Counted from the first letter of the stretch, positions 6,358-30,930 are shown. The stretch: 49,732 bases of DNA from Flavobacteriales bacterium UBA1112 (GCA_002313415.1 DCBH01000072.1:1-49732), one strand, 5' to 3'. Made by a program: numbers and translations. The notes: generated from the letters alone by a model not told the origin.

Positions 6358-6376
6358 TTGTTTGATGCTTTTGGAA

Positions 6377-12852: not shown

Positions 12853-14598
12853 TCAAGGACATACCTGACCAAATTGACCTAACAGAAGCAGAACATCGGC
12901 CACGGAGACGATGCCGTCTTGGTTCAAGTCAGAGGGACAGCTTGCACACAGTTGGAGGACTTCTTCTCCATCGTTGCAGTCGTTGTCGTTGGTGTCTATC
13001 AAAAGGGGGTTTGTATCTGAAAAAAACAGTTCAAACCCGTCTGTTAAGCCGTCATTGTCGGTGTCGGCATCTAGGGGGTCTGTTCCAATTTCGATTTCTT
13101 GAAAATCAGAGATTCCATCGTCATCGCTGTCTTGGATTTCGAAAGGTGTTAGGGAAAAATCCATGACAAGTGGGAGGTGGTCGGAAGCAGAATACGTGTC
13201 GTTGATGTCCAACCCGAATTCTGCAAGCACATCGGTTGGTGTGGATTCTGTTTCAAGTACAACCGCGTGCTCCTTGTCAATCACGGCATCGCTGAACAAA
13301 ATGAAGTCCAGACGGCCTGGTGGAAAATTGCCATCGCCATCGTCTCTCCATGTGTGCGTAAAGGGCTGGTGCGAATGCCGTGGCAGGGCGTCTGACCACG
13401 GAGTGCCGTCCCAATCAGGCATGTTGCCAACACCATAGGTTTGAGTCTGGACAATGTCGCCATTCAACAGCGTTTCGAGTTGTTGAACATACCCTACGAG
13501 ATTGAGATCACCAGCGTATACGATTGGCGTATTCTCTTCCAAGTTGCCTTCGTTGCTGACGATCCAAGCCATCATTTGATCTACCTCATCTTGACGAGCT
13601 TCGTCATTGCCGCAACAGCTTAAATGACTGTTGATGAACAGCATGGGCCCACCTAACGAATCAGGGATGCCAATGAGAAGCGGGAATTGTCTGGGAATGG
13701 CATCCCAAGATTGAAGTTGCGGCCACACGGTGGCGGTAATCAAATCCCCTTTTTTTGCGGTTTGCCACCCTTCGTCGGAGCTCAGTGGCAGCCATTCGTC
13801 AAGAAGTGATTTGACCTGCGAAGGGCTTGTTCCTCCGCATTCACTGAATAAAAATACATCTGCATTTAGTGCAGAGAGGATCCGCTCAAAGTGAACTTGG
13901 CGGTTGGTATTGATTAAGCCATTTGCCAAGACGTTGTATGCACAGACTCGAATGGATGATGAATTGGTTTTGGACAGGGTTAAAGGCTGCACATCTTCAG
14001 AAGCAGCATCGCTGAAATCGTAGACAAAAGACAGACCTGCATTGGGTAAGTCGTCGTTGAATTGTGCATCTCTAAACAAAATTCTGATGGAGTCTTGCGG
14101 AAAGAGAAAGGTCCCACCGTCAAGAACAACATTTCGACGCAGCGCGAATTCAAATTCATTGGAGGTGACCGTTGGCGCTGGAATCAAACCAATCTCTGAA
14201 AAGTTTACCTGATCAGCTGGGCCAAAATTGGTGTAGGCAAAAAGTCCATTGAAGTCAATCCCCAATTCAGAACCAAAACCTTCACGGACGGGATACCCAG
14301 TAAACTCATTCATGTCCACATCAATCTGGAGGAATAAATTGTGTGGATACAAGGCATCGGTCAAATCAATTTCCGAGGCCAAGCGCACATAGATAAAAAG
14401 ATGATCGAAGTTGCTACTGACCTTCATTTCCAAAAGGTCGACGGGGGAGGCTTCTTCCCAAGCAGAATCTTCTAACCCTTCGATGTCTGACCAGTCGTCA
14501 AATTGACCGTCAATGACAATTGGGTTGCTTTGGGCTTGGATGGAAGAAAGCGAAGCCATGAGCGCAAAAACCATCCAACCAATTTGAAAGCGTCGCAT
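12853..14598 (-). CDS. Secreted endonuclease/exonuclease/phosphatase (EEP) family protein with TSP3-like Ca repeats and a dockerin-like tail
   Basis: ATG at 14598 (GTG at 14601). The signal is MRRFQIGWMVFALMASLSSIQAQ. The EEP core has RVCAYNVLANG (Asn), FLFSECGG (Glu), GDLNLVG and the terminal SDHLPLVMDF (His). An N-terminal beta-sandwich of about 190 aa (IVIDGQFDDWSD...) is of unknown function. Confidence 0.75.
   Translation of the reverse strand: MRRFQIGWMVFALMASLSSIQAQSNPIVIDGQFDDWSDIEGLEDSAWEEASPVDLLEMKVSSNFDHLFIYVRLASEIDLTDALYPHNLFLQIDVDMNEFTGYPVREGFGSELGIDFNGLFAYTNFGPADQVNFSEIGLIPAPTVTSNEFEFALRRNVVLDGGTFLFPQDSIRILFRDAQFNDDLPNAGLSFVYDFSDAASEDVQPLTLSKTNSSSIRVCAYNVLANGLINTNRQVHFERILSALNADVFLFSECGGTSPSQVKSLLDEWLPLSSDEGWQTAKKGDLITATVWPQLQSWDAIPRQFPLLIGIPDSLGGPMLFINSHLSCCGNDEARQDEVDQMMAWIVSNEGNLEENTPIVYAGDLNLVGYVQQLETLLNGDIVQTQTYGVGNMPDWDGTPWSDALPRHSHQPFTHTWRDDGDGNFPPGRLDFILFSDAVIDKEHAVVLETESTPTDVLAEFGLDINDTYSASDHLPLVMDFSLTPFEIQDSDDDGISDFQEIEIGTDPLDADTDNDGLTDGFELFFSDTNPLLIDTNDNDCNDGEEVLQLCASCPSDLNQDGIVSVADVLLLLGQFGQVCP
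12856..12939 (-). other. Single dockerin/EF-hand-like repeat bracketed by Cys-Pro at the extreme C-terminus
   Basis: CPSDLNQDGIVSVADVLLLLGQFGQVCP-stop. It is 28 aa long and shares 13 of 28 positions with the tail at 8267-8350, including both CP brackets. Confidence 0.6.
12940..13131 (-). repeat. Thrombospondin type 3-like acidic calcium-binding repeats
   Basis: DSDDDGISDFQEIEIGTDPLDADTDNDGLTDGFELFFSDTNPLLIDTNDNDCNDGEE: recurring D-x-D-x-DG-x-x-D motifs. Confidence 0.65.
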
Positions 14599-14860
14599 CA
14601 CCTCTACAAGATATGATTGAATGCGTTGAAGAGAAATGCCTGAGCAAGCATTGACTCCCCCAAATCGGGTAAATTATTTAGAACGATTCAAAATAACCCA
14701 TTTGAGGTATGTTTTACGAACCTTATCCTTCAGAATTTTGAACTGAACAGATTTGGATTCCATGTGTTCCTGAAATTGGTTTTCAACGATTCGCATCGAG
14801 GCTGAACGCAGCTTCATGCATGGCAGCAGGTAATCGGAATATTCAAAAGTATTGTTCATC

Positions 14861-14883
14861 TGGGTGGGCGATTTGCCCACCCA
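14861..14883 (+). promoter_or_regulatory. Perfect 9-bp stem / 5-nt loop hairpin 18 nt upstream of the flavodoxin ATG
   Basis: TGGGTGGGC-GATTT-GCCCACCCA read directly from the sequence. It is not followed by a T-run on either strand, so it is not a classical terminator. It lies in the divergent intergenic region between the EEP gene and fldA. Confidence 0.4.
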
Positions 14884-14900
14884 GTTTCTTCCACAACAAC

Positions 14901-15449
14901 ATGGCATCAATGATTCAACTTTATTACGGTTCTGACACTCAAAACACGCACACAGTGGTGCAGGAAAAAATTGTGCCATTGTTAAAAAAGGAGGGTGTTG
15001 CAGTCCGCGACAAAATCATTCCCGAATTAAGCGATGAGGATTGGCGAGATCACGATTTCTTCATTTTGGGAGTGCCCACATGGTATTACGGGGAATTGCA
15101 AAGTGACTGGGAGGCTTATTTCGAGCATTTCAAAACGCTTGATTTCAAGGGCAAGACGGTCGCACTTTTCGGACTTGGTGATCAGTGGGGTTATGACGAG
15201 TGGTTCATTGATGGAGTGGGCATATTGGCTGAAGCTCTCCTTGAAAATGGTGCTGAAATCATTTGTCCTTGGCCAACGACGGGTTATGATTTTCTCAAGT
15301 CACGCGCTTTAAAAAATGAAGGCGAATTTTATGGCTTGGCTCTTGATGAGGACAATCAGTACGAGCTCACTCAGTCGCGTTGTGAAACATGGGTGAAACA
15401 ATTGGTTGCTGAATTGAAGAAAAAGGATTTGTTGCCCGCGATGAGCTGA
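14901..15449 (+). CDS. fldA: Long-chain flavodoxin
   Basis: ATG at 14901 (alternative at 14910). MIQLYYGSDTQNTHTV is the FMN phosphate loop (S/T-x-T-x-N-T). Further motifs are FFILGVPTWYYGELQSDWE, ALFGLGDQWGYDEWF and FYGLALDEDNQ, the long-chain insertion region. Confidence 0.85.
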   Translation: MASMIQLYYGSDTQNTHTVVQEKIVPLLKKEGVAVRDKIIPELSDEDWRDHDFFILGVPTWYYGELQSDWEAYFEHFKTLDFKGKTVALFGLGDQWGYDEWFIDGVGILAEALLENGAEIICPWPTTGYDFLKSRALKNEGEFYGLALDEDNQYELTQSRCETWVKQLVAELKKKDLLPAMS

Positions 15450-17041: not shown

Positions 17042-17078
17042 ACGTCCTTTTCTCTCGTCTTCTCTCAATCCAACTTTG

Positions 17079-19409
17079 ATGGATTCAGTTTCACCACATC
17101 TTGGGGAGTGTGGAATCTTTGCCAAGCGTGCGATGATCATCATCTTTCAAGCTCTATGCATCGTTCAAGGAGCTTGGAACCAAGATGACATCTCGGCGTT
17201 GGTGGAGGGTCACGTCCTTCATTCCAACTCTCATACGAGACTACCTGGCGTCCTTGTGATGGCTTGGCCCTGCGGCCTTTCCACATTCACAGATGCTTCA
17301 GGAGGGTTTCGTGTGACGTGTCGAGATGGGATTGATTCATTGACGTTGTCTTGTGTGGGTTTTGACACTCAAGTGGTCTTAGCCCCGGCAGCACACGTGG
17401 ATGTATGGATGGAGGAATTGAAGGTCATGCTCGGTCAAGCTCGAGTGGCCGCAATCGGACTCAATGAATCGGAATCTCAAACGCTCGAACAGCCAACTTT
17501 GATGCAGGCACTCGACCGAACTCCTGGGCTTCAAAGCCTTGATCTTGGTGCAGGGATGATACAGCCTGTGATTCGAGGCTTGTATGGTTCTCGTGTTGCC
17601 ATTCTAGAAAACGGCGTACCCCAGCAGGGAGGACGTTGGGGGACTGATCATGGGGTACTCGTGGCCCCTGAATTGCAGGTTGAGACGTCATGGGTGCCAG
17701 GTGGTGGTCACGTATGGATGGGCCCCGGGGCCGTTGGAGGGGGGATGCGTTTTGAGTCACCTTCTGCGAAGAATTCCAGCGGTGTAAGCACTCGTTTGGG
17801 GGCTGTAGCCCGGGCAGGAAACTTCAAAGCAGGTCTTCATGCGCTCCACATTTCGAATGACGATGATATCCATTGGCATGCTGGCTTGTCAGTATCAGAG
17901 TTTGGCTCATCTCAAGTTCCACAACGTCGGTTCTCCTATCTTGGAAGAGTCTACGAACTTGAGACTGGAGAGCTTACCAATACTGCTGGCCGCGCTGGCC
18001 ACGCAGTCTTCGGATTAGAAAAAGAGACACAAGCAGGTCGGACGGTTGCATGGTCAATGCGCCTGTCCGATGTGCAACAAGGCCTATTTCCAGGAATCGT
18101 TGGTCTACCGAGGCAAGGAGACTTGTCGCCAAACGACCAGTTGCTCGAAATTCGACTTCCCAACCAGCACGCATCTCGCGTCCAAATGATTTTTGAGCGC
18201 TCTGCTTTGCAGGGCGGCATAGACGTCAACTGGGATTATAAACTTTCGGGTTCTTGGAACAAGCGTCGTGAGTATGCACCTCCTCACGCTCATGGATGGG
18301 GACCTCTTCCAAACTCGGATTTGAGTCTGGCAATGGAAGAGTGGACAGTTTTTGGTGAAGCGCGCCAACGAGGTGCACATGGTTCGTTTGGGTTGCAGCT
18401 TGAAGCTCAGCATGTGACCACGTCAGGTTGGGAATTTTTACTCCCAAGTCATCGGCGCATCCGGACCTCTTGCATGGGCGAAATCAGTGCTGATAAATCA
18501 ACGCTGGCTGGCCGAATTGACCTTGTTTACGCCAATCAGGAGAGACACTTTGAACCACTTTACAATTCTGAAGGGGACGTCGTGGGAACAGATGTTCGTG
18601 CCCTTGCATTCGAAACGCTGATGCCGGGTGGCATGCTTTCTTGGCAAAGACCGCTGTCATCGAAAAACAATCGCGTGAGAGGCTTGGCAACTTTGGTCGC
18701 ATATGGCCGAGTTCCAAGTAACCATGAATGGGGCGCAAACGGGATTCATCACGGTTCATTCCGTTTCGAACAAGGAAATCCCAATCTGCGAACAGAGTGG
18801 GCTACGGAAGCTAGGCTTTCGATGCAAAATGATTCTGAGGAGCTAGGAGGGCAATGGAGTGCAAAAGGGTTTGTGTCTTTTCACAAGGGATTCATTTCCA
18901 TCACACCAGTTGCAAAATTTGCACCCATTTCGCACGCAGGTCAGATCTACGAATTCCTGGCAAACGATGCCTTCCGAACGGGAATGGAGGTCGAGGTTAG
19001 CCATCGCATGGAGCGTCAAACCTTTTCTTTTGATGCATCTGCACTCGGTCAATGGGACATGGCTACAGGTTTGGGGCTGCCGTTCACAACACCTTTGCAA
19101 TCTCGCTTAGGTTGGGAGGGTGTGGCAGGTCATGGCTTCACTCTGAATCTCTCGGGGCGCGCCGTGGCTCCAGCCACCTTGACTGCCAGAAATGAAAACA
19201 CCACGCCAGGGGCCCTCTTGGCGGACATCACACTATCTCAAACCACCGAAAAGGGGCAGTGGACCTTGGAAGTCCAAAATGTCTTTGATCGCGCGTGGCT
19301 TGATCATACCAGTGCCTATCGCGCTTTGGGTCTCGTGGCCCAAGGGAGATGGGTTCAACTTCGCTTTACAACCCAGTTGAAGCGGAATACCAAAAATTTT
19401 AATTCTTAA
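17079..19409 (+). CDS. TonB-dependent outer-membrane receptor with an N-terminal CarboxypepD_reg-like domain
   Basis: Start at ATG 17079 or 17133 (MIIIFQALCIVQGAW signal). The CarboxypepD_reg-like stretch is VEGHVLHSNSHTRLPGVLV...TDASGGFRV. The plug motifs are LDRTPGLQSL...IQPVIRGLYGSRVAILENGVPQ, followed by a beta-barrel region of about 550 aa. Confidence 0.85.
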   Translation: MDSVSPHLGECGIFAKRAMIIIFQALCIVQGAWNQDDISALVEGHVLHSNSHTRLPGVLVMAWPCGLSTFTDASGGFRVTCRDGIDSLTLSCVGFDTQVVLAPAAHVDVWMEELKVMLGQARVAAIGLNESESQTLEQPTLMQALDRTPGLQSLDLGAGMIQPVIRGLYGSRVAILENGVPQQGGRWGTDHGVLVAPELQVETSWVPGGGHVWMGPGAVGGGMRFESPSAKNSSGVSTRLGAVARAGNFKAGLHALHISNDDDIHWHAGLSVSEFGSSQVPQRRFSYLGRVYELETGELTNTAGRAGHAVFGLEKETQAGRTVAWSMRLSDVQQGLFPGIVGLPRQGDLSPNDQLLEIRLPNQHASRVQMIFERSALQGGIDVNWDYKLSGSWNKRREYAPPHAHGWGPLPNSDLSLAMEEWTVFGEARQRGAHGSFGLQLEAQHVTTSGWEFLLPSHRRIRTSCMGEISADKSTLAGRIDLVYANQERHFEPLYNSEGDVVGTDVRALAFETLMPGGMLSWQRPLSSKNNRVRGLATLVAYGRVPSNHEWGANGIHHGSFRFEQGNPNLRTEWATEARLSMQNDSEELGGQWSAKGFVSFHKGFISITPVAKFAPISHAGQIYEFLANDAFRTGMEVEVSHRMERQTFSFDASALGQWDMATGLGLPFTTPLQSRLGWEGVAGHGFTLNLSGRAVAPATLTARNENTTPGALLADITLSQTTEKGQWTLEVQNVFDRAWLDHTSAYRALGLVAQGRWVQLRFTTQLKRNTKNFNS

Positions 19410-19419
19410 TTCTATTCAG

Positions 19420-20214
19420 ATGAATCGTACTATTTTTTTTCAAGCTGTGGCTTGCTTAGGACTGGCCGTAGCCTTGGTTTCATGTCAAGAAACAGATACA
19501 GAAGCTCCTACCGTTTGCACGCAACTTGGTGCAATGAACAGCGTCCTTGCGGACGAAATTGAGGCCGAGGCAGGCGATCACATTGACCTAGAGGATGTCT
19601 TTTGCGACAACGAAGCATTGAGTCAAGTACGCTATGACATCCACAACGGCGAGGGTCATGCCCACGACGAAGGTGATGAAGGTGAGGACGAGCACGAGCA
19701 CGGCCTGGTCTTGCACAGTGGAACTGGCTGGGCTGTTCTTGAAACATTCGACATTGATGGAACCGAAGCAGCGGTTGACCTGCATGTCGATGTACCATTG
19801 ACAGCACGTGGCGTTTGGCATTTGATTGTGGATGTCGTTGATGCGGAGGGCAATGCCGCCACATACAACACTGATCTCCACGTAGAAAACAGCCACATGC
19901 CTGAGTTCACGCTGACGTCTGTTGGCGGTGAAGATCCAAGCACTTGGCATGGTGAACCCACGTGGGCGGCCAATTCCTCTGTGGTTGTTGAAGGCAGCGT
20001 AACAGACTCGGACGGAATTGCTTCCGCCGAACTTGAACTGATCGATGAAGCTACCGAAACGGTGGTTTGGTCGACCGAATTGGCTGAGTTTGATGCGTTC
20101 AGTGAGACGGTTGTCGTTCCGGAAAACGCTTCTGGTGAATTTCACTTTGAAATGAAGGCAACCTGCAATGCTGGAGTGAGCATGGAAACAGGGTTTCACG
20201 TTGAAGTGGAGTAA
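19420..20214 (+). CDS. His/Asp/Glu-rich lipoprotein with two Ig-like (DUF4625-like) domains; candidate metal-binding partner of the receptor
   Basis: The signal is MNRTIFFQAVACLGLAVALVSC (lipobox). The acidic His-rich loop is DIHNGEGHAHDEGDEGEDEHEHGLVLHSG. It starts 10 nt after the TBDR stop. Confidence 0.7.
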   Translation: MNRTIFFQAVACLGLAVALVSCQETDTEAPTVCTQLGAMNSVLADEIEAEAGDHIDLEDVFCDNEALSQVRYDIHNGEGHAHDEGDEGEDEHEHGLVLHSGTGWAVLETFDIDGTEAAVDLHVDVPLTARGVWHLIVDVVDAEGNAATYNTDLHVENSHMPEFTLTSVGGEDPSTWHGEPTWAANSSVVVEGSVTDSDGIASAELELIDEATETVVWSTELAEFDAFSETVVVPENASGEFHFEMKATCNAGVSMETGFHVEVE

Positions 20215-20554: not shown

Positions 20555-21019
20555 TCAATCTTCAGACTTTTTGAGCCTGATTCCCTCGATGGGACAGCCG
20601 ACAGCTTCTGTGACAGGATTCTTGACTGCTCTGCCCGCGAGGCAATCTCGGAGGGCGGCATCCAAGTCCCGCCTTTTGGTGAGTGGCTTCCGCTTGCCAG
20701 GCGCGAAGTATCGGTCATTGATTCGCCCACGATACACGACGGAATCAAGGTCATTGAGGACAAAAACCTCAGGTGTCCATTGTGCCCCAAGGGCTTCCGC
20801 CCAATGGGCCGTGTCCTTCATCATAGGCATTTTTAAACCATAAGTGGATTGAAATGAGGTCACCTGGTCGGATGTGCTCGAGGGGTTGGGAAATATGCCA
20901 ACAAACTCAATGGGTGCATGTGCAAAGTCACTCTCCAATTGACGCAAGTCAAAAGACATGTTCTGGCATATTGGACATAGCGGGGCCAAAAAAATCAACA
21001 CTTTCCACATGGGTTCCAT
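20555..21019 (-). CDS. Thioredoxin-fold (redoxin/AhpC-TSA-like) protein with a CPIC active-site motif
   Basis: KVLIFLAPLCPICQN is beta1 plus a CxxC at a helix N-terminus. Further motifs are IEFVGIFPN, TPEVFVLN...VVYRGRIND and a second Cys pair near the C-terminus. It starts 10 nt downstream of the monooxygenase stop on the same strand. Confidence 0.7.
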   Translation of the reverse strand: MEPMWKVLIFLAPLCPICQNMSFDLRQLESDFAHAPIEFVGIFPNPSSTSDQVTSFQSTYGLKMPMMKDTAHWAEALGAQWTPEVFVLNDLDSVVYRGRINDRYFAPGKRKPLTKRRDLDAALRDCLAGRAVKNPVTEAVGCPIEGIRLKKSED

Positions 21020-21029
21020 GCAATCAAAA

Positions 21030-22487
21030 TTAGCAAGTTGCGCCGTAGGTGCTGAGAAGTTGAAGCAAGTCTGAAATGGTCACGGCATCGTCCAGGTCGA
21101 TGTCGGCATTGCAATCGGATGTGCATCCAAACTCAGAAAGCAGAAACAACATGTCCCCTACACTGATCACACCATCGTCGTTGACGTCACTCGCGCATGT
21201 GGGTTCGTCTGAGGGAGCGAGGGAAATGAGTTCGTCTCCCTCTTGGTACAAGACGTAATCAAAAAAAACGAAGAACATCTCGTCTGTGGTCCCTTCTCCA
21301 AATGTCACATTCTGCGGCGGGTCGTTGGGGTTGAAGGGATTGGAGCTTGTATTGTCGTAGCTGGCGATGCCGTGTAAGGTGTAGCCCGAGGGGATTTTTG
21401 TCAGTGTTGGGAAGGTGAAGAAACCCTGCCAATTGAAATCCCACGAAGGGATAGAAATGAGCGGAATGGTGTCCTGATTGCTTGGTGAAGTCGCAAAGAC
21501 TTCCCAGGAAGAACCAATCAAATGGCAATGGGGCGCAACGCTTAATAAGCTGACATCTGCAGCCACCTGCATCGATCCTTGAAAAGTCCGCAATTGATTG
21601 GCAGGCAGATAGAAAGGCTCGTCAAGATGTTGAGGCCCCATGATGCCAGTTTCAACTTCACGTTCAATGGGTTCCTCTGAGAAGAAGACGTTGATCTCAG
21701 TTTGGTCTGATTCCTCGATTGGCGATGGACCGTAGTGCATTTGAAGCAAGACGTCAGAGCCTGCGGGTACAATACGCCCTATTCCTGGAGGATATTCAAG
21801 GGTTAAAGCTCCTGGGACCCAAGCACCAAAAAAATTGCTCTCGGCGGAGAAACCGAAGCCCCCAAAGCTTTCGTACCCTGGTTCAGGATCTTGGGCATCT
21901 AAGCTTGCTGCGGTGCCGGTGACGTCCAAACCCAAAATGGCGTGGTGAGATACATTCCGATTTCCGGGTCTAACCTCGAGCGCGCGAATGGACAGGTCGT
22001 TGTTGGGGTCTGCTGGCAGAACAAACACTTGATATTGATCGGTCATATCGCCTCCGTGGGTATACGGCTCTGCCATGGAAAGCACGAGGTCAGGGGAGCC
22101 AATCTGGCTCCCCTCTGGAAACGAGGGCAAGCCAGGGTTGTCTGCGGGATCGCCCTCAGGTTTGCCTTGAGCAACCCAGGCACTTAACGTCGCTTTTTCT
22201 TCGGTTGTGAGCACGCGTTCTCCAACAAAATGCGAATAGCTGTTGTCGGGAGACCAAGGAGGCATGTAGCCCGTTGAAGTCACGTACTCAATAAATTCAC
22301 CATACATGGAAACTTCGTTGAACGTTGTCAGCGGCATTGGACTGATTTCACCGACTCGATGACACTCCGCACAGTGCGTGTAGATGATGGGGGCAACATC
22401 GGCATGAAAAGTGACATTTTGGGCATGACCGAACATGGCTGACCCCGTCCAAAAACTCAAATTCAACAAATAGTGCCATCGGCTCAT
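21030..22487 (-). CDS. Secreted cytochrome-c-domain / PHM-DBH-like type II copper monooxygenase fusion with a two-repeat dockerin-like C-terminus
   Basis: The ATG at 22487 gives signal MSRWHYLLNLSFWTGSAMFGHAQ. The heme c motif CAECH is at 22359-22373, followed by ...GYMPPW. The copper-site pattern is VSHHAILG, LLQMHYG, APHCHLIG and TTDEMFFVF. Residues are numbered from the caller's upstream start at 22739 (subtract 84 for the ATG at 22487). Spacings are HH265/266-H335-H404/H406-M488, close to rat PHM H107/H108-H172-H242/H244-M314. Confidence 0.75.
   Translation of the reverse strand: MSRWHYLLNLSFWTGSAMFGHAQNVTFHADVAPIIYTHCAECHRVGEISPMPLTTFNEVSMYGEFIEYVTSTGYMPPWSPDNSYSHFVGERVLTTEEKATLSAWVAQGKPEGDPADNPGLPSFPEGSQIGSPDLVLSMAEPYTHGGDMTDQYQVFVLPADPNNDLSIRALEVRPGNRNVSHHAILGLDVTGTAASLDAQDPEPGYESFGGFGFSAESNFFGAWVPGALTLEYPPGIGRIVPAGSDVLLQMHYGPSPIEESDQTEINVFFSEEPIEREVETGIMGPQHLDEPFYLPANQLRTFQGSMQVAADVSLLSVAPHCHLIGSSWEVFATSPSNQDTIPLISIPSWDFNWQGFFTFPTLTKIPSGYTLHGIASYDNTSSNPFNPNDPPQNVTFGEGTTDEMFFVFFDYVLYQEGDELISLAPSDEPTCASDVNDDGVISVGDMLFLLSEFGCTSDCNADIDLDDAVTISDLLQLLSTYGATC
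21033..21197 (-). other. Two-repeat dockerin-like module, each repeat Cys-bracketed, at the extreme C-terminus
   Basis: CASDVNDDGVISVGDMLFLLSEFGC-TSD-CNADIDLDDAVTISDLLQLLSTYGATC-stop. Confidence 0.6.
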
Positions 22488-22536
22488 GATAGGTAATGTA
22501 GTGAAAGCGCGACACTTCAGATTGTAACTTCGCCAC

Positions 22537-23373
22537 ATGACGGGTGGATTCTTTGCGTTGTTGGACGACATTGCTGCGATGATGGACGATGTGGCTGCCA
22601 TGACAAAATTGGCGGGCAAGAAGACTGTGGGCATTTTGGGGGATGATCTGGCAGTGAATGCCGAAAAGGCAGTTGGTTTCTCCTCATCTCGTGAGTTGCC
22701 AGTGTTGTGGGCAATTTCTAAAGGATCTTTTCTCAACAAACTTATAATTTTGCCAGCTGCATTTGCCCTTAGCGCTTTCGCGCCTTGGGTGATTGAACCG
22801 ATTCTTCTGCTTGGCGGTGCGTATTTGTCTTATGAGGGGATGGAAAAGGTCATTCACTACGCACGCCCCTCACGCAGCAGGCATGTCGATTCAAATTCAG
22901 GACCAACCGAAAAACAGCGTATCCGCTCCGCGGTACTGGTGGATTTTATATTGTCTGTGGAGATCATAATCCTTGCCTTGGGCCAGGTCATTGAGGCAGA
23001 TTGGTTGGTTCAGGTGGTGTCTGTGTCGCTGATTGCCCTCTTGGCCACGGTAGGGGTGTATGGGGTGGTTGCTTTGCTCGTTCGTATGGATGATGCAGGG
23101 CTGGCATTGATGAAACGCGAGGTGGCCTGGGCCCGGAGCTTCGGCTCTTTTCTTGTGGAGGCCTTGCCATGGACGATTAAAGGGCTCACTGCTGTGGGTA
23201 CGGTTGCGCTTCTCCTGGTCTCGGGAGGGATTTTTCACCATCACATTCCACGGATGCATGAATTTTTGCACAGTTGGCCATCCATACTTGCAGATGGTTT
23301 CTTGGGGATTGTCGGGGGCACTGTAGTTTGGTTCATGTCGATCGCAATCAAGAACTTCAAAGGAAGAGTATGA
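22537..23373 (+). CDS. DUF808 (YedI-like) inner-membrane protein
   Basis: The characteristic N-terminus is MTGGFFALLDDIAAMMDDVAAMTKLAGKKTVGILGDDLAVNAEK, followed by several TM segments. Confidence 0.8.
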   Translation: MTGGFFALLDDIAAMMDDVAAMTKLAGKKTVGILGDDLAVNAEKAVGFSSSRELPVLWAISKGSFLNKLIILPAAFALSAFAPWVIEPILLLGGAYLSYEGMEKVIHYARPSRSRHVDSNSGPTEKQRIRSAVLVDFILSVEIIILALGQVIEADWLVQVVSVSLIALLATVGVYGVVALLVRMDDAGLALMKREVAWARSFGSFLVEALPWTIKGLTAVGTVALLLVSGGIFHHHIPRMHEFLHSWPSILADGFLGIVGGTVVWFMSIAIKNFKGRV

Positions 23374-26937: not shown

Positions 26938-28164
26938 TCAGTCGTAAGATTCTTGGATTTCGATACAGCCAGCAAGGTTCCAGAAGTTGAACTCATTTTC
27001 GCTCCACGGTTGGGCGCCTGGAACGTCAACGTGCAGGATGTGCCTTCCTGCACCAAGTCGTCCAAGAGCAATGCTTCGAGGAATTACCCAATCTCCTGGA
27101 CACCAATTGGACCGACTAAGGTCTGAAGAGGCCACGCGTTCTGTGAGAGTGTCACCACGATAGACATAGGTCGAAGGCCAAAATCCGCTTGTGGGATTGA
27201 ATCTTCGGAATGCGCCGCAATCGTCGCGCCAAGGCGTCCAAGCATCTATGGTGTCGCCGTCGAGGACCAGGGCATGAGGCTGTTTTGTAAACTCATCTCC
27301 ACCTGCGTGGCCGCCGTGACCAGTGGTGAGAAAGTGCAGGGTCGTTTCACCGGGATGTTGAAGCTTGAATTCGATGCGTAGGGCAGAATCAGGGAGCTGT
27401 GTGAAAGGTCGTTGGTCGTGTGCAAGTTTTGTGGTGTTGAACAATGGCATGATGAGATGTTCCGAAGCCCAATCACAAGGCAGGGGGCTTTCTAGTACAT
27501 GAAGGCTTGCAGTCAAGGTGTAGCCCTCCGAGGTCCACGTGTCGATGTAAGCTCCTATCCAAATTGTATCGGCGGATTCAAGCCAAGGTTGGAGGTAAGA
27601 CACATCAGCTTTCCATGAAGCACTATCTGCCCAGCGAGACACAGCTTTTGGACGATAATTGTTGGCGCGATCGTTTTGGCTGAAGTGCCCGACTCCAAAT
27701 GGGGTGATGAATCGCATCAGTTCTAGGGGAGGTTGTCTCACCCCCTCTTGAACGATTCCCGCAAATCTTGTCGTGTCGGCGTCATCGCCGTCAAGCATGC
27801 GGTTTAAATAGTCTCGTCCAGCGTCACCTGCAAAAGCAAAGAGGCTGCCGCTTTTGTCCCACGGATCTCCTGAAGATTTGATGGACACCTCGAGTTCGAT
27901 GTTGCAACGTCTTGGATGAACTGGAATGGCCAAGGGCTTGAGTAAAATGCGTCCCGCATCAAGGCGAAAAGCACCGTCCTCCATGCACATGGAATCGGAG
28001 TGCATGTCAGGGTTAAAGTTTACCGTTTCGTTTTGCCAGATTTCAAGATGCATGGATCCAACTGCGGGTGCATCCAATAAAAGACTTCTTGAACATGCTG
28101 GAAAGCACAGCATGAATGTGGACATGAAAAAGCCGAAGAAAAAGTGAACATGCCTTTGGGTCAT
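26938..28164 (-). CDS. PNGase F-like (peptide-N-glycosidase F related) two-domain protein, probable lipoprotein
   Basis: The signal/lipobox is STFMLCFPAC. The N-domain has SGDPWDKSGSLFAF (compare PNGase F CDEWDRYANVYV). The C-domain has TTGHGGHAGGDEF...WRDDCGAF...SRSNWCPGDWVIPRSI (compare GWGH...CAEW...DRAGWCPGMAVPTRI). This is a motif-level match from memory. Confidence 0.55.
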   Translation of the reverse strand: MTQRHVHFFFGFFMSTFMLCFPACSRSLLLDAPAVGSMHLEIWQNETVNFNPDMHSDSMCMEDGAFRLDAGRILLKPLAIPVHPRRCNIELEVSIKSSGDPWDKSGSLFAFAGDAGRDYLNRMLDGDDADTTRFAGIVQEGVRQPPLELMRFITPFGVGHFSQNDRANNYRPKAVSRWADSASWKADVSYLQPWLESADTIWIGAYIDTWTSEGYTLTASLHVLESPLPCDWASEHLIMPLFNTTKLAHDQRPFTQLPDSALRIEFKLQHPGETTLHFLTTGHGGHAGGDEFTKQPHALVLDGDTIDAWTPWRDDCGAFRRFNPTSGFWPSTYVYRGDTLTERVASSDLSRSNWCPGDWVIPRSIALGRLGAGRHILHVDVPGAQPWSENEFNFWNLAGCIEIQESYD

Positions 28165-28255: not shown

Positions 28256-28789
28256 TTATTTCGCCGAGGTCAGTGCATCGATGACATCAATCATTTGAGA
28301 GAATTCTTCTTCATCAAACAAGCGAGTCAACATGGCTATGCGGCCACTGCGATCGACCACAACATTGCGTGTGACTCCCGCTTTTGGTTCAGCAATGCTG
28401 TAAAAAACTTGACCACCGGGGTCTGGGCACATGGGGTAAGTCACTCCCATACGTTCGGAAAATGCAGCGACTTTATCGTGCGGCTCATCTAGATCGACAC
28501 CCAAAAGCAAAAACGGGCGATCTTGAAAAGATTGCCACACTTCGGACTCCAAATGAGGCATCTCTGCTCGACACACGCGACACCAGGATGCGGTGAATTG
28601 CAGCACATAGGTTGTGCCGATTAGAGAACTTTTTGTGTAGGTGTTTCCTGCGAGGTCGTGAAGCACAAAGTCAGGCATTTCATCGCCCATTTGAACCGTA
28701 AAACCTCGCGAATTGACTTGGGCAAATGACGCGTTGAGGCCCGCCAAAAGCCAGCTCGAAGCTAAAAGATAGAGGTGTTTGGCCTTCAT
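28256..28789 (-). CDS. Periplasmic TlpA/ResA-like thiol:disulfide oxidoreductase
   Basis: The signal is MKAKHLYLLASSWLLAGLNASFAQ. The thioredoxin motif is YVLQFTASWCRVCRAEMPHLE (WCxxC), followed by LLGVDLDE and TRNVVVDRSGRI. Confidence 0.8.
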   Translation of the reverse strand: MKAKHLYLLASSWLLAGLNASFAQVNSRGFTVQMGDEMPDFVLHDLAGNTYTKSSLIGTTYVLQFTASWCRVCRAEMPHLESEVWQSFQDRPFLLLGVDLDEPHDKVAAFSERMGVTYPMCPDPGGQVFYSIAEPKAGVTRNVVVDRSGRIAMLTRLFDEEEFSQMIDVIDALTSAK

Positions 28790-28828: not shown

Positions 28829-30067
28829 TCATTTCCAAAAGGATTTAAGGGTTCTGCCTAAAGATGAGAAGGGACAACGCTTAGGTACATCTTCTTCAGG
28901 AAACGCGTCTGTTGCCAGCAGGCGGTGAGTCTCCTTGGCTTTGGATGTAAATGTCATTCCGTTCACACGCGGAGGGGGTTGATAGAAGTAGTTGGTGTGA
29001 GTGATTACGCTGTTCGTGAAATGTCGGTGGTATTGTGGAGTCAAGCTGCCGGACATGGGTGGAGTCAACCACGACCAATCTCCCGGGACCTCTCGTCCTT
29101 GTCGCTCCTCAGCTTGGCACCATTGCTCAAATGCGCGGCCAATTTGGTGATGGTCGCCGACTGTGACCCCAGCGGCGTCAAAACTCGCCAGCAGCGCCTG
29201 ATTGAGCCGAACCAAGGCTTCGTCTTGCCATAGGCCACGTCGCAATTTTGTGGCGATGCCACAAGACTCTGCCCAAGGTTTAAGAACATTGTATCTGTCA
29301 GGGTCCGTCAAGTTTCTCGCCGCAATTTCAGTACCGAGGTAATGCCCATTGAATGGGGCAAAAGGATAAATCACGCCTCCAATTTTCAATGCCATGTCTG
29401 CCAAGATCGGCACGGCATACCACCTCAATCCAAGATTCTTTGTCGCTGGAAAATCCGGATGTGCAATGGGGATGTCGTGGGGGGACAAATTGCCGTCGTG
29501 AAACGGATCTACGGGCGTGTGGGCCCGTCCTGATTCCACTAGGACCCAGGGCAGTGGGGTCCAAGGAGTTTCTTTGGTATCCCATCCCTGATTGATACAG
29601 TACTTTGTCAAATCGATGCTGTCCGGATCACCCAAGACCTTTCCATGGGCTTGCTCAAATCCAGCGTAGCGAACCAATTGGTGGTTGGCCATACGCCATG
29701 GCACGTCCTCGCTTGACTGCGCCTGAGGAAAGATTGTGATGACGTTGCTGATTTTTCCGCCGTTGAATGCAGCATTGACGTGGCACTTGAGGTGTGAGAC
29801 GGCCTCATCGAGGCTGTCGCATTTGCGTGCGTCGTGAACTTGAAGGGTTCGCCAAAAATGTCGTCCGATGCACCGATTTGAATTGCGCCATGCAAGTCTA
29901 GACCCAAACTCTAACTCCTTATAGTTGTGTTTATAAGTTCCAGTTGACTCAATTTCAGATTGAATTTGTTTCCATCGCAGAGTGACATCGGGAATGTCCG
30001 CGCCTGCGACTGGGTCAGCAGCCATTGAATCCAAAAAAGCACGAGCTTCTTTTTTCAGTTGTTCCAT
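28829..30067 (-). CDS. nos: Bacterial nitric oxide synthase, oxygenase domain only
   Basis: The ATG at 30067 gives MEQLKKEARAFLD, aligning with the B. subtilis NOS N-terminus. Residues are numbered from the caller's upstream start at 30217 (subtract 50 for the ATG at 30067). AWRNSNRCIGRHFW carries the heme thiolate Cys116 (29870-29872). Further motifs are NGGKISNVITIFPQ, HQLVRYAGF, LRWYAVPILADM, PFNGHYLGTEIAARN, VTVGDHH and DWSWLTPPMSGSLTP. No reductase domain and no mammalian-type N-terminal Zn/pterin hook are present. Confidence 0.9.
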   Translation of the reverse strand: MEQLKKEARAFLDSMAADPVAGADIPDVTLRWKQIQSEIESTGTYKHNYKELEFGSRLAWRNSNRCIGRHFWRTLQVHDARKCDSLDEAVSHLKCHVNAAFNGGKISNVITIFPQAQSSEDVPWRMANHQLVRYAGFEQAHGKVLGDPDSIDLTKYCINQGWDTKETPWTPLPWVLVESGRAHTPVDPFHDGNLSPHDIPIAHPDFPATKNLGLRWYAVPILADMALKIGGVIYPFAPFNGHYLGTEIAARNLTDPDRYNVLKPWAESCGIATKLRRGLWQDEALVRLNQALLASFDAAGVTVGDHHQIGRAFEQWCQAEERQGREVPGDWSWLTPPMSGSLTPQYHRHFTNSVITHTNYFYQPPPRVNGMTFTSKAKETHRLLATDAFPEEDVPKRCPFSSLGRTLKSFWK

Positions 30068-30198
30068 TCCTTTCACACCAGCAAATGGCGAGATGGGATC
30101 GAGGTGGAATGGGGATGAATTGGCGCCAGACAAGTTCACGGAGCAAAGGTACGCCTGTAATGCAGCAAGAGGAGGGGCATTCACGACCTTTGGCAACC

Positions 30199-30930
30199 AT
30201 GAGTGAGTCATTATCACAAGGAACCCGAATCAACAAATACCTCAGTGAGGTAGGTCATTGCTCGCGCAGGGCTGCAGATGCACTGATTGAAGAAGGCAGA
30301 ATTACCATCAATGGGGTGGTTCCTAAAATGGGAACCCGTGTGCAACTCGGAGACGTGGTCGCGGTGGATGGAGTCGAAGTAGCAACAAGCGATCAAGAGC
30401 GAATCATCATCGCATATCACAAGCCTGTGGGTATCGTGTGCACAACGGACCGGCGACGTGAAAAGGACAACATCATTGATGCGATTGATTTTCCAACTCG
30501 GATTTATCCTATTGGCAGATTAGATAAAATGAGTGAAGGGCTGATTTTTTTGACCAACGATGGAGACATCGTCAACGACATTCTTCGGGCGCGTTTTGGG
30601 CACGAAAAGGAGTATCACGTGACGGTCAATGCACCTGTTACCGGAGAGTTCCTCAAGAAGATGTCAGAAGGAGTTCCCATTTTAGATACCGTTACGTTGC
30701 CTTGTGAAGTGAATGCCACTGGCCCGCAATCATTCAAAATCATCCTGAAGCAGGGACTAAACAGACAAATTCGGCGGATGTGTGAGGAGTTGGGTTACCG
30801 AGTCCGACGACTGAAGCGCGTACGCATCATGAACGTCGAACTCGGAGATTTACCCGTAGGTACGTATCGCCACTTGGATGACCCTGAGCTTCGCAAGCTC
30901 AAAGCACTTACACGAGAGGCAAAAAATTAA
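30199..30930 (+). CDS. rluF: 23S rRNA pseudouridine synthase F (RsuA/RluF family)
   Basis: The ATG at 30199 opens an S4 domain (RINKYLSEVGHCSRRAADALIEEGRITING). The catalytic motif is IYPIGRLDKMSEGLIFLTNDGD. HEKEYHVTV, GVPILDTVT and GLNRQIRRMCEELGY are near-collinear with E. coli RluF. Confidence 0.9.
   Translation: MSESLSQGTRINKYLSEVGHCSRRAADALIEEGRITINGVVPKMGTRVQLGDVVAVDGVEVATSDQERIIIAYHKPVGIVCTTDRRREKDNIIDAIDFPTRIYPIGRLDKMSEGLIFLTNDGDIVNDILRARFGHEKEYHVTVNAPVTGEFLKKMSEGVPILDTVTLPCEVNATGPQSFKIILKQGLNRQIRRMCEELGYRVRRLKRVRIMNVELGDLPVGTYRHLDDPELRKLKALTREAKN

What the first reader, a model, noticed from the sequence alone, without database searches (positions are those of the whole stretch)
20555..22487. 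Secreted PHM/DBH-like two-copper monooxygenase fused to a c-type cytochrome module, co-transcribed with a thioredoxin-fold gene
Residues are numbered from the caller's upstream start at 22739 (subtract 84 for the ATG at 22487).

Seen in sequence:
- a signal peptide;
- a CAECH heme-c motif (22359-22373) followed by ...GYMPPW;
- a domain carrying HH (265/266), H (335, in LLQMHYG), H-x-H (404/406, in APHCHLIG) and M (488, in TTDEMFFVF).

Both the local contexts (PHM: TVHHMLLFG, LQVHYGD, HTHHLG, SSDEMCNLY) and the spacings (about 69, 69 and 82 residues, against 64, 70 and 70 in rat PHM) match the CuH/CuM ligand set of peptidylglycine alpha-hydroxylating monooxygenase and dopamine beta-monooxygenase. 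The protein ends in a two-repeat dockerin-like module. Ten nt downstream lies a CPIC thioredoxin-fold gene with no obvious signal peptide.

Established knowledge: PHM/DBH enzymes are animal, ascorbate-dependent enzymes, and to my knowledge their bacterial homologues have no assigned substrate.

Inference: the fused heme c could replace ascorbate as the electron donor, making this a self-contained extracellular C-H hydroxylase. It could act on peptides, glycans or amines and may be tethered through the dockerin-like tail.
Basis: partly seen in the sequence, partly recalled or inferred. Interest (0 to 1): 0.72.

Follow-up and report, generated by a model that had tools for sequence, protein, structure and literature searches.

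The report
Heme-fused bacterial PHM-like copper enzyme
A marine flavobacterium encodes a secreted enzyme that joins a c-type cytochrome to a two-copper domain like that of animal peptide-amidating and dopamine-hydroxylating enzymes; it is paired with a thioredoxin-like gene and belongs to a very large bacterial family whose substrate nobody has identified.

Summary
Window 21030-22487 (-) encodes a 485-aa protein: signal peptide, mono-heme cytochrome c module (CAECH, invariant MPPW), a two-domain PHM/DBH-type copper core, and a two-repeat Cys-bracketed dockerin-like tail.

- **Sequence evidence:** the protein alone hits no Pfam model. A profile of 34-70%-identical relatives aligns to rat PHM (hhalign 97.9%, E 4.8e-13). 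All six ligands land on the copper sites: H181/H182/H251 on CuH and H320/H322/M404 on CuM.
- **Structural evidence:** the 31 best Foldseek matches to the AlphaFold model are all PHM or DBH (best E 2e-12).
- **Partner gene:** the thioredoxin-fold gene (20555-21019) is the only conserved neighbour, adjacent in 63 of 79 genome loci across several phyla. In other lineages it is fused in the order Redoxin, cytochrome c, CuH, CuM.
- **Family size:** about 17,400 clusters (50% identity), annotated only as hypothetical, redoxin or cytochrome c proteins.

Inferred, not shown: an O2-dependent hydroxylase whose heme c replaces ascorbate as donor to CuH, with the thiol protein acting upstream as reductant or maturation factor. 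PHM's peptide-anchoring residues are absent, so the substrate is not glycine-extended peptides. In this clade the partner lacks a signal peptide, which is unexplained.

The parts
21030..22487 (-). Gene for the 485-aa cytochrome c / PHM-like two-copper protein (stop codon at 21030-21032).
   Evidence: ORF. The start is fixed by the 82-85%-identical homologues of 485 aa, which align from the first residue. Translation checked.
22419..22487 (-). Signal peptide, residues 1-23 (MSRWHYLLNLSFWTGSAMFGHAQ).
   Evidence: The N-terminus is variable and hydrophobic and ends in AQ just before the conserved mature sequence in all 35 aligned homologues. Inferred from sequence; no predictor was run.
22143..22418 (-). 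Mono-heme class I c-type cytochrome module, residues 24-115.
   Evidence: C39, C42, H43, M75-P-P-W78 and W104 are invariant in 40 distant relatives. Pfam Cytochrome_CBB3 gives sub-threshold hits in 30 of 35 members. A profile of the module hits the heme c domain of hydrazine synthase alpha (E 6.5e-4), PccH and cytochromes c6. The model shows the N-terminal, middle and C-terminal helices.
22359..22373 (-). CAECH heme c attachment motif (C39, C42, H43).
   Evidence: Invariant.
22254..22265 (-). MPPW motif. M75 is the likely sixth (axial) heme ligand.
   Evidence: Invariant. It aligns with the AMPAW axial-Met motif of cytochrome c6, but that alignment is weak (E 0.29).
21663..22100 (-). N-terminal beta-sandwich of the PHM-like core (CuH domain), residues about 130-275.
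   Evidence: hhalign of A2 against rat PHM. hmmsearch of A2 against PDB hits PHM at E 1.1e-8. Foldseek. Pfam Cu2_monooxygen scores above its cut-off in relatives P0237, P0222 and P0205.
21942..21947 (-). H181-H182, aligned to PHM H107-H108 (CuH ligands).
   Evidence: In 40 distant relatives H182 is invariant and H181 at least 90% conserved.
21735..21737 (-). H251 in LLQMHYG, aligned to PHM H172 (third CuH ligand). Q249 aligns to PHM Q170.
21213..21662 (-). C-terminal beta-sandwich of the PHM-like core (CuM domain), residues about 276-425. It carries the family-specific motifs WDFNWQ and YDNTxxNPxNPxxPP.
   Evidence: Pfam Cu2_monoox_C scores above its cut-off in many relatives and gives sub-threshold hits in 16 of 35 close homologues.
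21522..21530 (-). H320-C321-H322, aligned to PHM H242-T243-H244 (CuM ligands).
   Evidence: Conservation.
21276..21278 (-). M404 in DEMFF, aligned to PHM M314 (the CuM methionine).
   Evidence: Conservation.
21033..21197 (-). C-terminal tail of two Cys-bracketed, EF-hand-like repeats (GC-type dockerin-like), residues 431-485. Paralogues carry a T9SS sorting domain in the same position.
   Evidence: The swap with PF18962 is seen.
20555..21019 (-). Gene for the 154-aa thioredoxin-fold partner (Redoxin/AhpC-TSA, PRX_like1-type). It lies 10 nt downstream and has no signal peptide.
   Evidence: Pfam Redoxin 41 bits and AhpC-TSA 35.6 bits, both above their cut-offs. The model has pLDDT 88, and its best structural matches are 3u5r, 2cvb/2ywo and 2ywi (TM about 0.8), followed by ResA and CcmG. 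Adjacent in 63 of 79 loci. Fused homologues.
20966..20977 (-). CPIC active-site motif of the partner (C15, C18).
   Evidence: Across 71 family members C15 is present in 68. Position 18 is C in 38, S in 25 and T in 3.
20594..20596 (-). C142 in the conserved C-terminal GCPIE motif of the partner.
   Evidence: G141-C142 is present in 69 of 71 members and in the fused redoxin domains.

Best explanation
This is a two-gene extracytoplasmic oxygenase module.

Shown:
- The 485-aa product is exported by a Sec signal peptide.
- It has a c-type heme-binding module (CxxCH plus a conserved Met), so heme would be attached in the periplasm.
- It has a two-domain PHM/DBH-type copper core in which all six ligands are preserved (CuH: H181, H182, H251; CuM: H320, H322, M404).
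- It ends in a Ca-binding dockerin-like tail.
- The adjacent thioredoxin-fold gene is a conserved functional partner.

Inferred mechanism:
- The enzyme works like PHM or DBH. O2 binds reduced CuM, and the Cu-superoxo species abstracts a hydrogen atom from a C-H bond of a still unknown substrate, which is then hydroxylated.
- The two electrons per turnover enter one at a time through CuH. Here the fused heme c, not ascorbate, supplies them.
- The thioredoxin-fold protein acts upstream. It is either the thiol reductant that recharges the heme, matching the domain order Redoxin, cytochrome c, CuH, CuM in fused homologues, or a factor that keeps the protein competent during maturation.
- The dockerin-like tail, or a T9SS sorting domain in paralogues, places the enzyme at or beyond the cell surface.
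- The substrate is not a glycine-extended peptide.
For: Fold and ligands:
- The 31 best Foldseek PDB matches are all PHM or DBH. E-values run from 2e-12 to 5e-10, target TM-scores are 0.52-0.63 for PHM chains (0.36 for the longer DBH chains), and about 300 columns align.
- The profile of 40 distant relatives hits PHM at E 1.1e-8 and DBH at E 2e-4 in PDB.
- hhalign against rat PHM gives 97.9% probability and E 4.8e-13 over 249 columns, with all six ligands in register.
- The ligands are invariant or at least 90% conserved.
- Relatives reach the Pfam gathering scores for Cu2_monooxygen and Cu2_monoox_C.
- PHM Q170, proposed to lie on PHM's electron path (established knowledge), is conserved as Q249.

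Heme module:
- CxxCH, MPPW and the C-terminal helix are invariant.
- Cytochrome-family hits appear.

Partner:
- It is the only gene family conserved next to the enzyme. It is present in 61 of the 87 loci clustered, while no other family is found in more than 9.
- It is adjacent on the same strand in 63 of 79 genome loci from Bacteroidota, Latescibacterota and Verrucomicrobiota.
- In at least 10 distant relatives scanned with Pfam it is fused N-terminally to the cytochrome module. The six of these whose sequences were read share the YRGRIDD and GCxIE motifs.
- It has the CxxC/S motif, the cis-Pro (TPE) and a thiol-oxidoreductase fold.

Localisation:
- T9SS sorting domains, PKD/Ig spacers and dockerin-like tails occur in homologues.
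Against: - No activity, metal content or heme binding has been measured for any member.
- The window protein itself hits no Pfam model, and a profile of close relatives alone finds nothing in PDB.
- The heme-binding loops are the low-confidence parts of the model (residues 40-52 and 74-86).
- In this marine Flavobacteriales clade the partner has no signal peptide (18 of the 63 partner genes). It would therefore sit in a different compartment from a heme c protein, which argues against a direct electron-donor role here.
- 25 of 71 partners have CxxS, which cannot act as a classical dithiol unless C142 is the resolving cysteine.
- An enzyme displayed outside the outer membrane has no obvious source of electrons.
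- 11 loci with complete flanks lack the partner.
Confidence: 0.55

Rival explanations
1. Thiol oxidase, a copper/heme analogue of QSOX. Electrons flow outward from substrate or partner thiols: Trx-fold CxxC to heme c to the Cu pair to O2. The system would make disulfides (or remove thiols) and reduce O2 to H2O2 or H2O. No C-H bond is hydroxylated.
For: The fused order Redoxin, cytochrome c, Cu domains resembles the Trx-Erv arrangement of QSOX (established knowledge). The partner has a redox-type CxxC and cis-Pro and a ResA/CcmG-like fold. No gene for a candidate organic substrate or a product-processing enzyme is conserved nearby.
Against: The complete CuM set, including the Met ligand typical of H-atom-abstracting sites, is conserved. 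PHM-type enzymes do not reduce O2 without substrate (established knowledge). CxxS variants are common. The partner is leaderless in the window's clade.
Confidence: 0.15
2. The enzyme is a PHM-type monooxygenase fed by the respiratory cytochrome c pool. The thioredoxin-fold protein is only a maturation factor. It could be a ResA/CcmG-like reductant of the apocytochrome CxxCH, or a keeper of reduced cysteines (for example C321 between the CuM histidines) before copper loading.
For: After uncharacterised PRX_like1-type proteins, the next structural relatives of the partner are the cytochrome c maturation reductants ResA, CcmG and StoA. T9SS-exported paralogues would meet a periplasmic partner only before export. 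C321 sits inside the HxH motif.
Against: A permanent 1:1 fusion of a maturation factor to its client is unusual, yet it occurs in at least 10 distant relatives. The leaderless partner in this clade cannot reach the periplasm. In many relatives position 321 is not Cys: Met is the majority residue among the 40 distant relatives and Ser occurs in some close ones.
Confidence: 0.2
3. Peroxide-handling system. The AhpC/TSA-like partner and the heme/copper protein together reduce H2O2, or use it as co-substrate (peroxygenase), rather than activating O2.
For: The partner hits Pfam AhpC-TSA. JGI names one fusion 'peroxiredoxin/mono/diheme cytochrome c family protein'. 1-Cys peroxiredoxins appear among the weaker structural matches.
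Against: The motif is Trx-like CPxC, not the peroxiredoxin PxxxT/SxxC. This comparison was made by eye against the known motif. The best structural matches are Trx-like oxidoreductases, not peroxiredoxins. The copper ligand set is that of O2-activating PHM/DBH.
Confidence: 0.07
4. A non-catalytic jelly-roll or PNGase F-like binding or hydrolytic protein that only resembles PHM in fold.
For: PHM and PNGase F share a structural superfamily (established knowledge). A true PNGase F gene lies in the same window at 26938-28164.
Against: No PNGase F chain is among the 50 best structural matches. All six copper ligands are conserved over a very large family, which a binding module would not require.
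Confidence: 0.03

Closest known systems
Peptidylglycine alpha-hydroxylating monooxygenase (PHM; rat PAM catalytic core, PDB 1PHM/1OPM/3MLL)
   Same: Same two-beta-sandwich fold. All six copper ligands are in register, and so is Q170/Q249. It is likewise a secreted or lumenal enzyme.
   Different: Only about 14-18% identity. PHM's peptide-carboxylate anchors R240, N316 and Y318 are replaced by A318, F406 and F408. The protein has no PAL partner domain, and PHM's disulfide pattern is absent. It has an N-terminal heme c module in place of dependence on soluble ascorbate, a thiol-protein partner, and family-specific WDFNWQ and YDNTxxNPxNP motifs.
Dopamine beta-hydroxylase / tyramine beta-monooxygenase / MOXD1 (PDB 4ZEL)
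   Same: The same catalytic core is matched by structure (E 1.9e-11) and by profile (E 2e-4). DBH also carries an N-terminal accessory domain in front of the core.
   Different: The DBH accessory domain is DOMON, not a c-type cytochrome. DBH has a C-terminal dimerisation domain and no thiol partner, and it is eukaryotic.
Bacterial Redoxin-cytochrome c-Cu2_monooxygen fusion proteins (for example P0180, P0223, P0237; uncharacterised, one named 'peroxiredoxin/mono/diheme cytochrome c family protein')
   Same: Same family at 34-38% identity. The cytochrome module, ligand set and redoxin motifs (YRGRI[DN]D, GCxIE) are the same.
   Different: There the redoxin is fused N-terminally behind a signal peptide and mostly has CPIS/T. 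In the window it is a separate, downstream, leaderless gene with CPIC. The window enzyme also carries a dockerin-like tail.
PRX_like1-type thioredoxin-fold proteins (PDB 3U5R SMc02350, 2CVB/2YWO Thermus, 2YWI Geobacillus), then ResA/CcmG/TlpA
   Same: The partner matches them over its whole length, including the C-terminal extension (TM about 0.8, 25-28% identity). Both have a CxxC and a cis-Pro.
   Different: Those proteins have no assigned function and no known link to a copper enzyme. The name PRX_like1 is from my memory of CDD and was not tested here.
Cellobiose dehydrogenase cytochrome domain feeding LPMOs; Sco-cytochrome c fusions
   Same: The logic is analogous: a heme domain delivers single electrons to a secreted copper oxygenase, or a Trx-fold domain is fused to a cytochrome c. 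This is established knowledge cited from memory.
   Different: The folds and copper sites are unrelated. LPMOs have a mononuclear histidine brace and the CDH heme is type b. No homology is claimed.

Membership tests
PHM/DBH copper type II monooxygenase superfamily (Pfam PF01082 + PF03712) | Two tandem antiparallel beta-sandwich domains. | tested here: met
   The AlphaFold model has pLDDT 77, with the core mostly above 80. Foldseek ranks 1-31 are all PHM or DBH, with best E 2e-12 and about 300 aligned columns.
PHM/DBH copper type II monooxygenase superfamily (Pfam PF01082 + PF03712) | CuH site: His-His pair plus a third His (PHM H107, H108, H172). | tested here: met
   H181, H182 and H251 align to these residues and are invariant or at least 90% conserved.
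PHM/DBH copper type II monooxygenase superfamily (Pfam PF01082 + PF03712) | CuM site: HxH plus Met (PHM H242, H244, M314). | tested here: met
   H320, H322 and M404 align to these residues and are conserved.
PHM/DBH copper type II monooxygenase superfamily (Pfam PF01082 + PF03712) | Score above the Pfam gathering thresholds. | tested here: not met
   The window protein gives 0 Pfam hits at E up to 0.1. Close homologues hit only below threshold: Cu2_monoox_C in 16 of 35 and Cu2_monooxygen in 2 of 35. Relatives at 34-38% identity do pass: Cu2_monoox_C 34.5 against a cut-off of 23, and Cu2_monooxygen 31.3-34.1 against 30. The family profile reaches PHM at hhalign E 4.8e-13.
PHM/DBH copper type II monooxygenase superfamily (Pfam PF01082 + PF03712) | Binds two Cu atoms and consumes O2 with substrate hydroxylation; ascorbate is the donor. 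| not testable with these tools
   This needs purified protein.
PHM proper (peptidylglycine hydroxylase orthologue) | Residues that anchor the peptidylglycine carboxylate (R240, N316, Y318). | tested here: not met
   In the hhalign register these positions are A318, F406 and F408. The fused relatives read also lack N and Y at the latter two positions.
Class I c-type cytochrome | CxxCH heme attachment motif in an exported protein. | tested here: met
   CAECH at residues 39-43 follows a signal peptide. C39, C42 and H43 are invariant.
Class I c-type cytochrome | Distal Met ligand and a three-helix core. | tested here: inconclusive
   M75 is invariant and aligns to the axial Met of cytochrome c6, but only at E 0.29. 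The model has helices at 27-39, 56-72 and 95-106, but the heme loops have pLDDT below 50.
Class I c-type cytochrome | Score above the Pfam gathering threshold (Cytochrome_CBB3 / Cytochrom_C). | tested here: not met
   Hits are sub-threshold in 30 of 35 homologues, best E 6e-4. Two long relatives, P0121 and P0136, pass at 34-37 bits against a cut-off of 27.
Thioredoxin-fold Redoxin/AhpC-TSA (TlpA/PRX_like1-type) - partner gene | Pfam Redoxin/AhpC-TSA above threshold, CxxC, cis-Pro, and a Trx fold. | tested here: met
   Redoxin scores 41 bits against 26.6 and AhpC-TSA 35.6 against 26. C15 is present in 68 of 71 members and T82-P83 in 65 and 70 of 71. Foldseek TM is about 0.8 to 3u5r, 2cvb and 2ywi.
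Sco-type copper chaperone - partner gene | CxxxC plus a conserved His that ligates Cu. | tested here: not met
   The motif is CxxC/S. No conserved His or Met was found in 71 members. No chain described as a Sco protein is among the 50 best structural matches.
Dockerin (NCBIfam NF041540 GC-type; Pfam Dockerin_1) | Two Ca-binding F-hand repeats at the C-terminus. | tested here: met
   The tail profile hits solved dockerins, with both repeats aligned to 2y3n_B (E 2.3e-6).
Dockerin (NCBIfam NF041540 GC-type; Pfam Dockerin_1) | Score above the curated cut-off, and a cohesin partner. | tested here: not met
   The window's tail scores 23.2 bits against a cut-off of 29, although 12 of 12 tails hit the model (best E 2.9e-7). 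No cohesin was searched for.

The most novel reading that the evidence does not exclude
The Redoxin, heme c, CuH, CuM chain is a previously undescribed type of extracytoplasmic redox enzyme in which protein thiols are coupled, through a one-electron heme relay, to a PHM-type copper pair. It could be a thiol-driven, ascorbate-independent C-H hydroxylase acting on marine or soil polymers, or a copper-dependent thiol oxidase. It is present in tens of thousands of bacterial lineages and would be the prokaryotic ancestor-type of the animal PHM/DBH enzymes.
Probability: 0.3. Interest if true: 0.8.

Novelty: new variant of a known kind. Interest (0 to 1): 0.62.

Why it matters
- **Large uncharacterised family.** PHM and DBH are textbook animal enzymes. 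How the second electron crosses the roughly 11 Å solvent gap from CuH to CuM is still debated (established knowledge). This bacterial branch is very large, with about 17,400 clusters at 50% identity, and has no assigned substrate.
- **A handle on electron transfer.** The enzyme carries a covalently fused, spectroscopically visible one-electron donor. It would allow triggered electron-transfer experiments that are not possible with ascorbate.
- **A testable prediction.** The conserved or fused thiol partner points to a specific upstream electron or maturation pathway.
- **Ecological reach.** The family is carried by abundant marine and freshwater polymer-degrading bacteria (Flavobacteriales, Saprospiraceae and others) and is often exported to the cell surface. 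Its substrate may matter for the turnover of dissolved organic matter.
- **Evolution.** It also bears on whether the animal enzymes derive from bacterial ones.

Tried and rejected
- **Single-sequence Pfam scan of the enzyme:** no hit.
- **PDB sequence search:** neither the single protein nor the close-homologue profile A1 found a PHM hit. Only the wider profile A2 reached PHM.
- **Literature:** nine full-text searches for bacterial PHM/DBH homologues, cytochrome c fusions or the Pfam names returned nothing relevant (one search failed on syntax). 'Not described' therefore holds only for that library.
- **Translational fusion of the enzyme to the partner by read-through or frameshift:** rejected as unsupported. 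The frames differ, the 10-nt gap follows a TAA stop, and homologues have separate or 1-10-nt overlapping genes.
- **Hidden signal peptide on the partner:** rejected. The ORF opens at its ATG. Clade members all start MW[KQT]VWVFLAPLC. That stretch is beta-strand 1 of the Trx fold, and LAPLC is a poor lipobox (my judgement).
- **Sco-like copper chaperone role for the partner:** rejected.
- **PNGase F-like reading:** rejected.
- **Second paralogue in the window:** none found. Only dockerin-like tails elsewhere matched.
- **Other conserved neighbours** (transporters, regulators, CcdA/DsbD, copper chaperones): none found in 87 loci.
- **Correlation between HCH/HMH in the enzyme and CxxC/CxxS in the partner:** a crude regex count shows a trend. 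It is probably phylogenetic and was not pursued.
- **Heme-to-CuH and C15-C142 distances:** could not be measured because model coordinates are not exposed.


Full report
**The observation.** The minus-strand ORF 21030..22739 is present. Its biological start is the ATG at 22487, giving 485 aa. The 82-85%-identical homologues of 485 aa align from the first residue, and the upstream TTG would overlap the divergent DUF808 gene. Every listed motif is at the stated place: CAECH at 22359-22373, GYMPPW at residues 73-78, HH at 181/182, H251, H320/H322 and M404. The spacings are 69/69/82 residues here against 64/70/70 in rat PHM. I verified the rat PHM sequence against PDB chain 5wm0_A. The thioredoxin-fold gene (20555-21019) follows after 10 nt, on the same strand and in another frame.

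**Sequence evidence for the copper core.**
- On its own the protein hits no Pfam model, and a profile of its close relatives finds nothing in PDB.
- It has 1,861 relatives in the word-indexed search, all unnamed or 'hypothetical'.
- A profile search of 1.84 billion cluster representatives finds 17,432 at E up to 1e-3 and 3,812 at E up to 1e-30.
- A profile of 40 diverse members (32-70% identical to the window protein) hits PHM chains in PDB at E 1.1e-8 and human DBH at 2e-4.
- hhalign of that profile against rat PHM gives 97.9% probability and E 4.8e-13 over 249 columns.
- In that alignment H181/H182 fall on H107/H108, H251 on H172, H320/H322 on H242/H244, and M404 on M314. PHM Q170 is matched by the invariant Q249.
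- All six ligands are invariant or at least 90% conserved in both alignments.
- Several relatives pass the Pfam gathering scores for Cu2_monooxygen and Cu2_monoox_C. Close homologues give sub-threshold hits.

**Structural evidence for the copper core.** The AlphaFold2 model has mean pLDDT 77. Its 31 best PDB matches are all PHM or DBH, at E 2e-12 to 5e-10. Viral jelly-roll capsids follow only from E 2e-5.

**Not a PHM orthologue.** PHM's peptidylglycine anchors R240, N316 and Y318 correspond to A318, F406 and F408.

**The cytochrome module.**
- C39, C42, H43, M75-P-P-W78 and W104 are invariant even among the distant relatives.
- Pfam Cytochrome_CBB3 is hit below threshold in 30 of 35 homologues and above threshold in two long relatives.
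- A profile of the module alone hits the heme c domain of hydrazine synthase alpha (E 6.5e-4, covering both the CxxCH region and the C-terminal helix), Geobacter PccH, and cytochromes c6. In the c6 alignment the axial AMPAW methionine lines up with M75.
- The predicted helices fit a class I cytochrome, but the heme loops are modelled with low confidence, as expected without the cofactor.

**The tail.** Residues 431-485 form two units of the type C-x-x-D-[LV]-N-x-D-G-...-L-L-x-x-[FY]-G-x-x-C.
- A profile of the tail hits solved dockerins (E 2.3e-6, both repeats aligned) and NCBIfam dockerin_GC in 12 of 12 tails. The window's tail scores 23.2 bits, below the 29-bit cut-off.
- Paralogues and orthologues carry a T9SS sorting domain at the same position.
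- Longer relatives insert PKD, Ig or InlB-type spacers.
- Together these point to display at, or release from, the cell surface.

**The partner.**
- The 154-aa protein passes the Pfam Redoxin and AhpC-TSA thresholds.
- Its model (pLDDT 88) matches, over its full length, three uncharacterised thioredoxin-like proteins (3u5r, 2cvb/2ywo, 2ywi; TM about 0.8). The cytochrome c maturation reductants ResA, CcmG and StoA come next.
- Across 71 family members the conserved residues are C15, the cis-Pro (T82-P83), Y96-x-G-R and G141-C142. Position 18 is Cys, Ser or Thr. No His or Met is conserved, which argues against a Sco-type copper site.

**Linkage between enzyme and partner.**
- In the 87 loci clustered, including the window region, only two gene families are conserved: the enzyme (81 loci) and this partner (61 loci). 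No other family appears in more than 9 loci.
- Among 79 species-representative genome loci from Flavobacteriales, Saprospiraceae, Cytophagales, Hymenobacter, Latescibacterota, Ignavibacteria and Verrucomicrobiota, the partner is adjacent on the same strand in 63. Five of the 16 exceptions are truncated contigs.
- In other lineages the two are one polypeptide in the order signal peptide, Redoxin, cytochrome c, Cu2_monooxygen, Cu2_monoox_C. The six fusions whose sequences were read share the YRGRI[DN]D and GCxIE motifs.
- This gene fusion, together with the conserved gene order, is strong evidence for a shared function.
- Co-transcription in the window is inferred from the 10-nt gap and the absence of an intervening terminator-like site.

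**An unexplained feature.** In most lineages the partner lies upstream and has a classical N-terminal leader (37 of 42 upstream copies by a simple hydropathy test). In the marine Flavobacteriales clade to which the window belongs, it lies downstream or between two tandem paralogues. There it begins directly with beta-strand 1 (MW[KQT]VWVFLAPLC) and has no leader, in 18 of the 63 loci that have a partner. A heme c protein must mature outside the cytoplasm. In this clade the two proteins should therefore be in different compartments, unless the partner is exported unconventionally.

**Mechanism.**
- Shown: the architecture, the ligand set, the partner linkage and the export signals.
- Inferred: the enzyme activates O2 at CuM and hydroxylates a C-H bond as PHM and DBH do. 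The fused heme c delivers single electrons to CuH in place of ascorbate. The thiol protein is either the upstream reductant, matching the domain order of the fusions, or a maturation factor.
- I put about 0.55 on this overall reading.
- The rivals are a QSOX-like thiol oxidase, a purely maturational partner with electrons coming from the respiratory cytochrome c pool, a peroxide-dependent system, and a non-catalytic PNGase F-like module. The last is effectively excluded by ligand conservation and the structural ranking.

**Novelty.** The fold, the copper sites and the individual domains are known kinds, and Pfam recognises distant members. Nine full-text searches found no description of a bacterial cytochrome c-fused PHM-type enzyme or of its thiol partner. 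No bacterial homologue appears among solved structures up to April 2026. Source names are only 'hypothetical', 'redoxin' or 'cytochrome c family'. I therefore class it as a new variant of a known kind: well supported in architecture, unknown in substrate, and of above-average interest.

Noticed in passing
window 28829-30217 (-), with 28256-28789 (-): A 462-aa protein with a full nitric oxide synthase oxygenase domain (Pfam NO_synthase, E 8.5e-123). It sits directly upstream, on the same strand, of a separate 177-aa Redoxin/AhpC-TSA gene. This is a bacterial NOS in a marine Flavobacteriales genome.
   Followed up: no
window 26938-28164 (-): A PNGase F homologue (N-glycanase_N plus N-glycanase_C, E about 1e-36). 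It belongs to the same structural superfamily as PHM but has no copper ligands, and it lies 4.5 kb from the finding. It is syntenic in L004.
   Followed up: partly
window 17076-19409 (+) and 19420-20214 (+): A TonB-dependent receptor (Plug and CarboxypepD_reg domains) followed by a DUF4625 lipoprotein-like protein with a His/Asp/Glu-rich stretch (HAHDEGDEGEDEHEHG). The pair converges on the operon and may be a metal-uptake system. It is syntenic only in close relatives.
   Followed up: partly
window 12853-14601 (-) and 6305-8353 (+): Two more proteins, read as secreted, end in a single copy of the same Cys-bracketed dockerin-like unit (C-P-x-D-L-[ND]-x-D-G-...-L-L-x-x-F-[GS]-x-x-C-P). One is an Exo_endo_phos/TSP3 protein and the other has no Pfam hit. 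This suggests a lineage-specific anchoring or sorting tag used as an alternative to the T9SS C-terminal domain.
   Followed up: partly
L006, L007, L009-L015 (for example L007 4104-7551); L002/L003 6001-9119: Related Flavobacteriales carry tandem paralogues of the enzyme: a dockerin-tail copy and a second copy with a different, longer tail. The second copy's tail is a T9SS sorting domain where scanned (for example P0069). The redoxin gene is usually sandwiched between the two copies. In L002/L003 the two copies are adjacent without it.
   Followed up: partly
partner genes in L008-L033 compared with L036-L086: The thioredoxin-fold partner has lost its signal peptide, and its position relative to the enzyme gene has switched, specifically in the marine Flavobacteriales clade. 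Elsewhere it keeps a classical leader. The consequence for compartmentation is unexplained.
   Followed up: partly
P0129 (775 aa, Flavobacteriales MAG) and P0121/P0136 (1064/1251 aa): Unusual relatives. One has a C-terminal Kunitz/BPTI protease-inhibitor domain. The others are duplicated modules, with EF-hands (P0121) or two Redoxin domains (P0136) in one chain.
   Followed up: no
window 14820-15449 (+): A stand-alone flavodoxin gene (Pfam Flavodoxin_1, E 6e-16). It is a possible reductase partner for the nearby NOS, but this was not examined.
   Followed up: no
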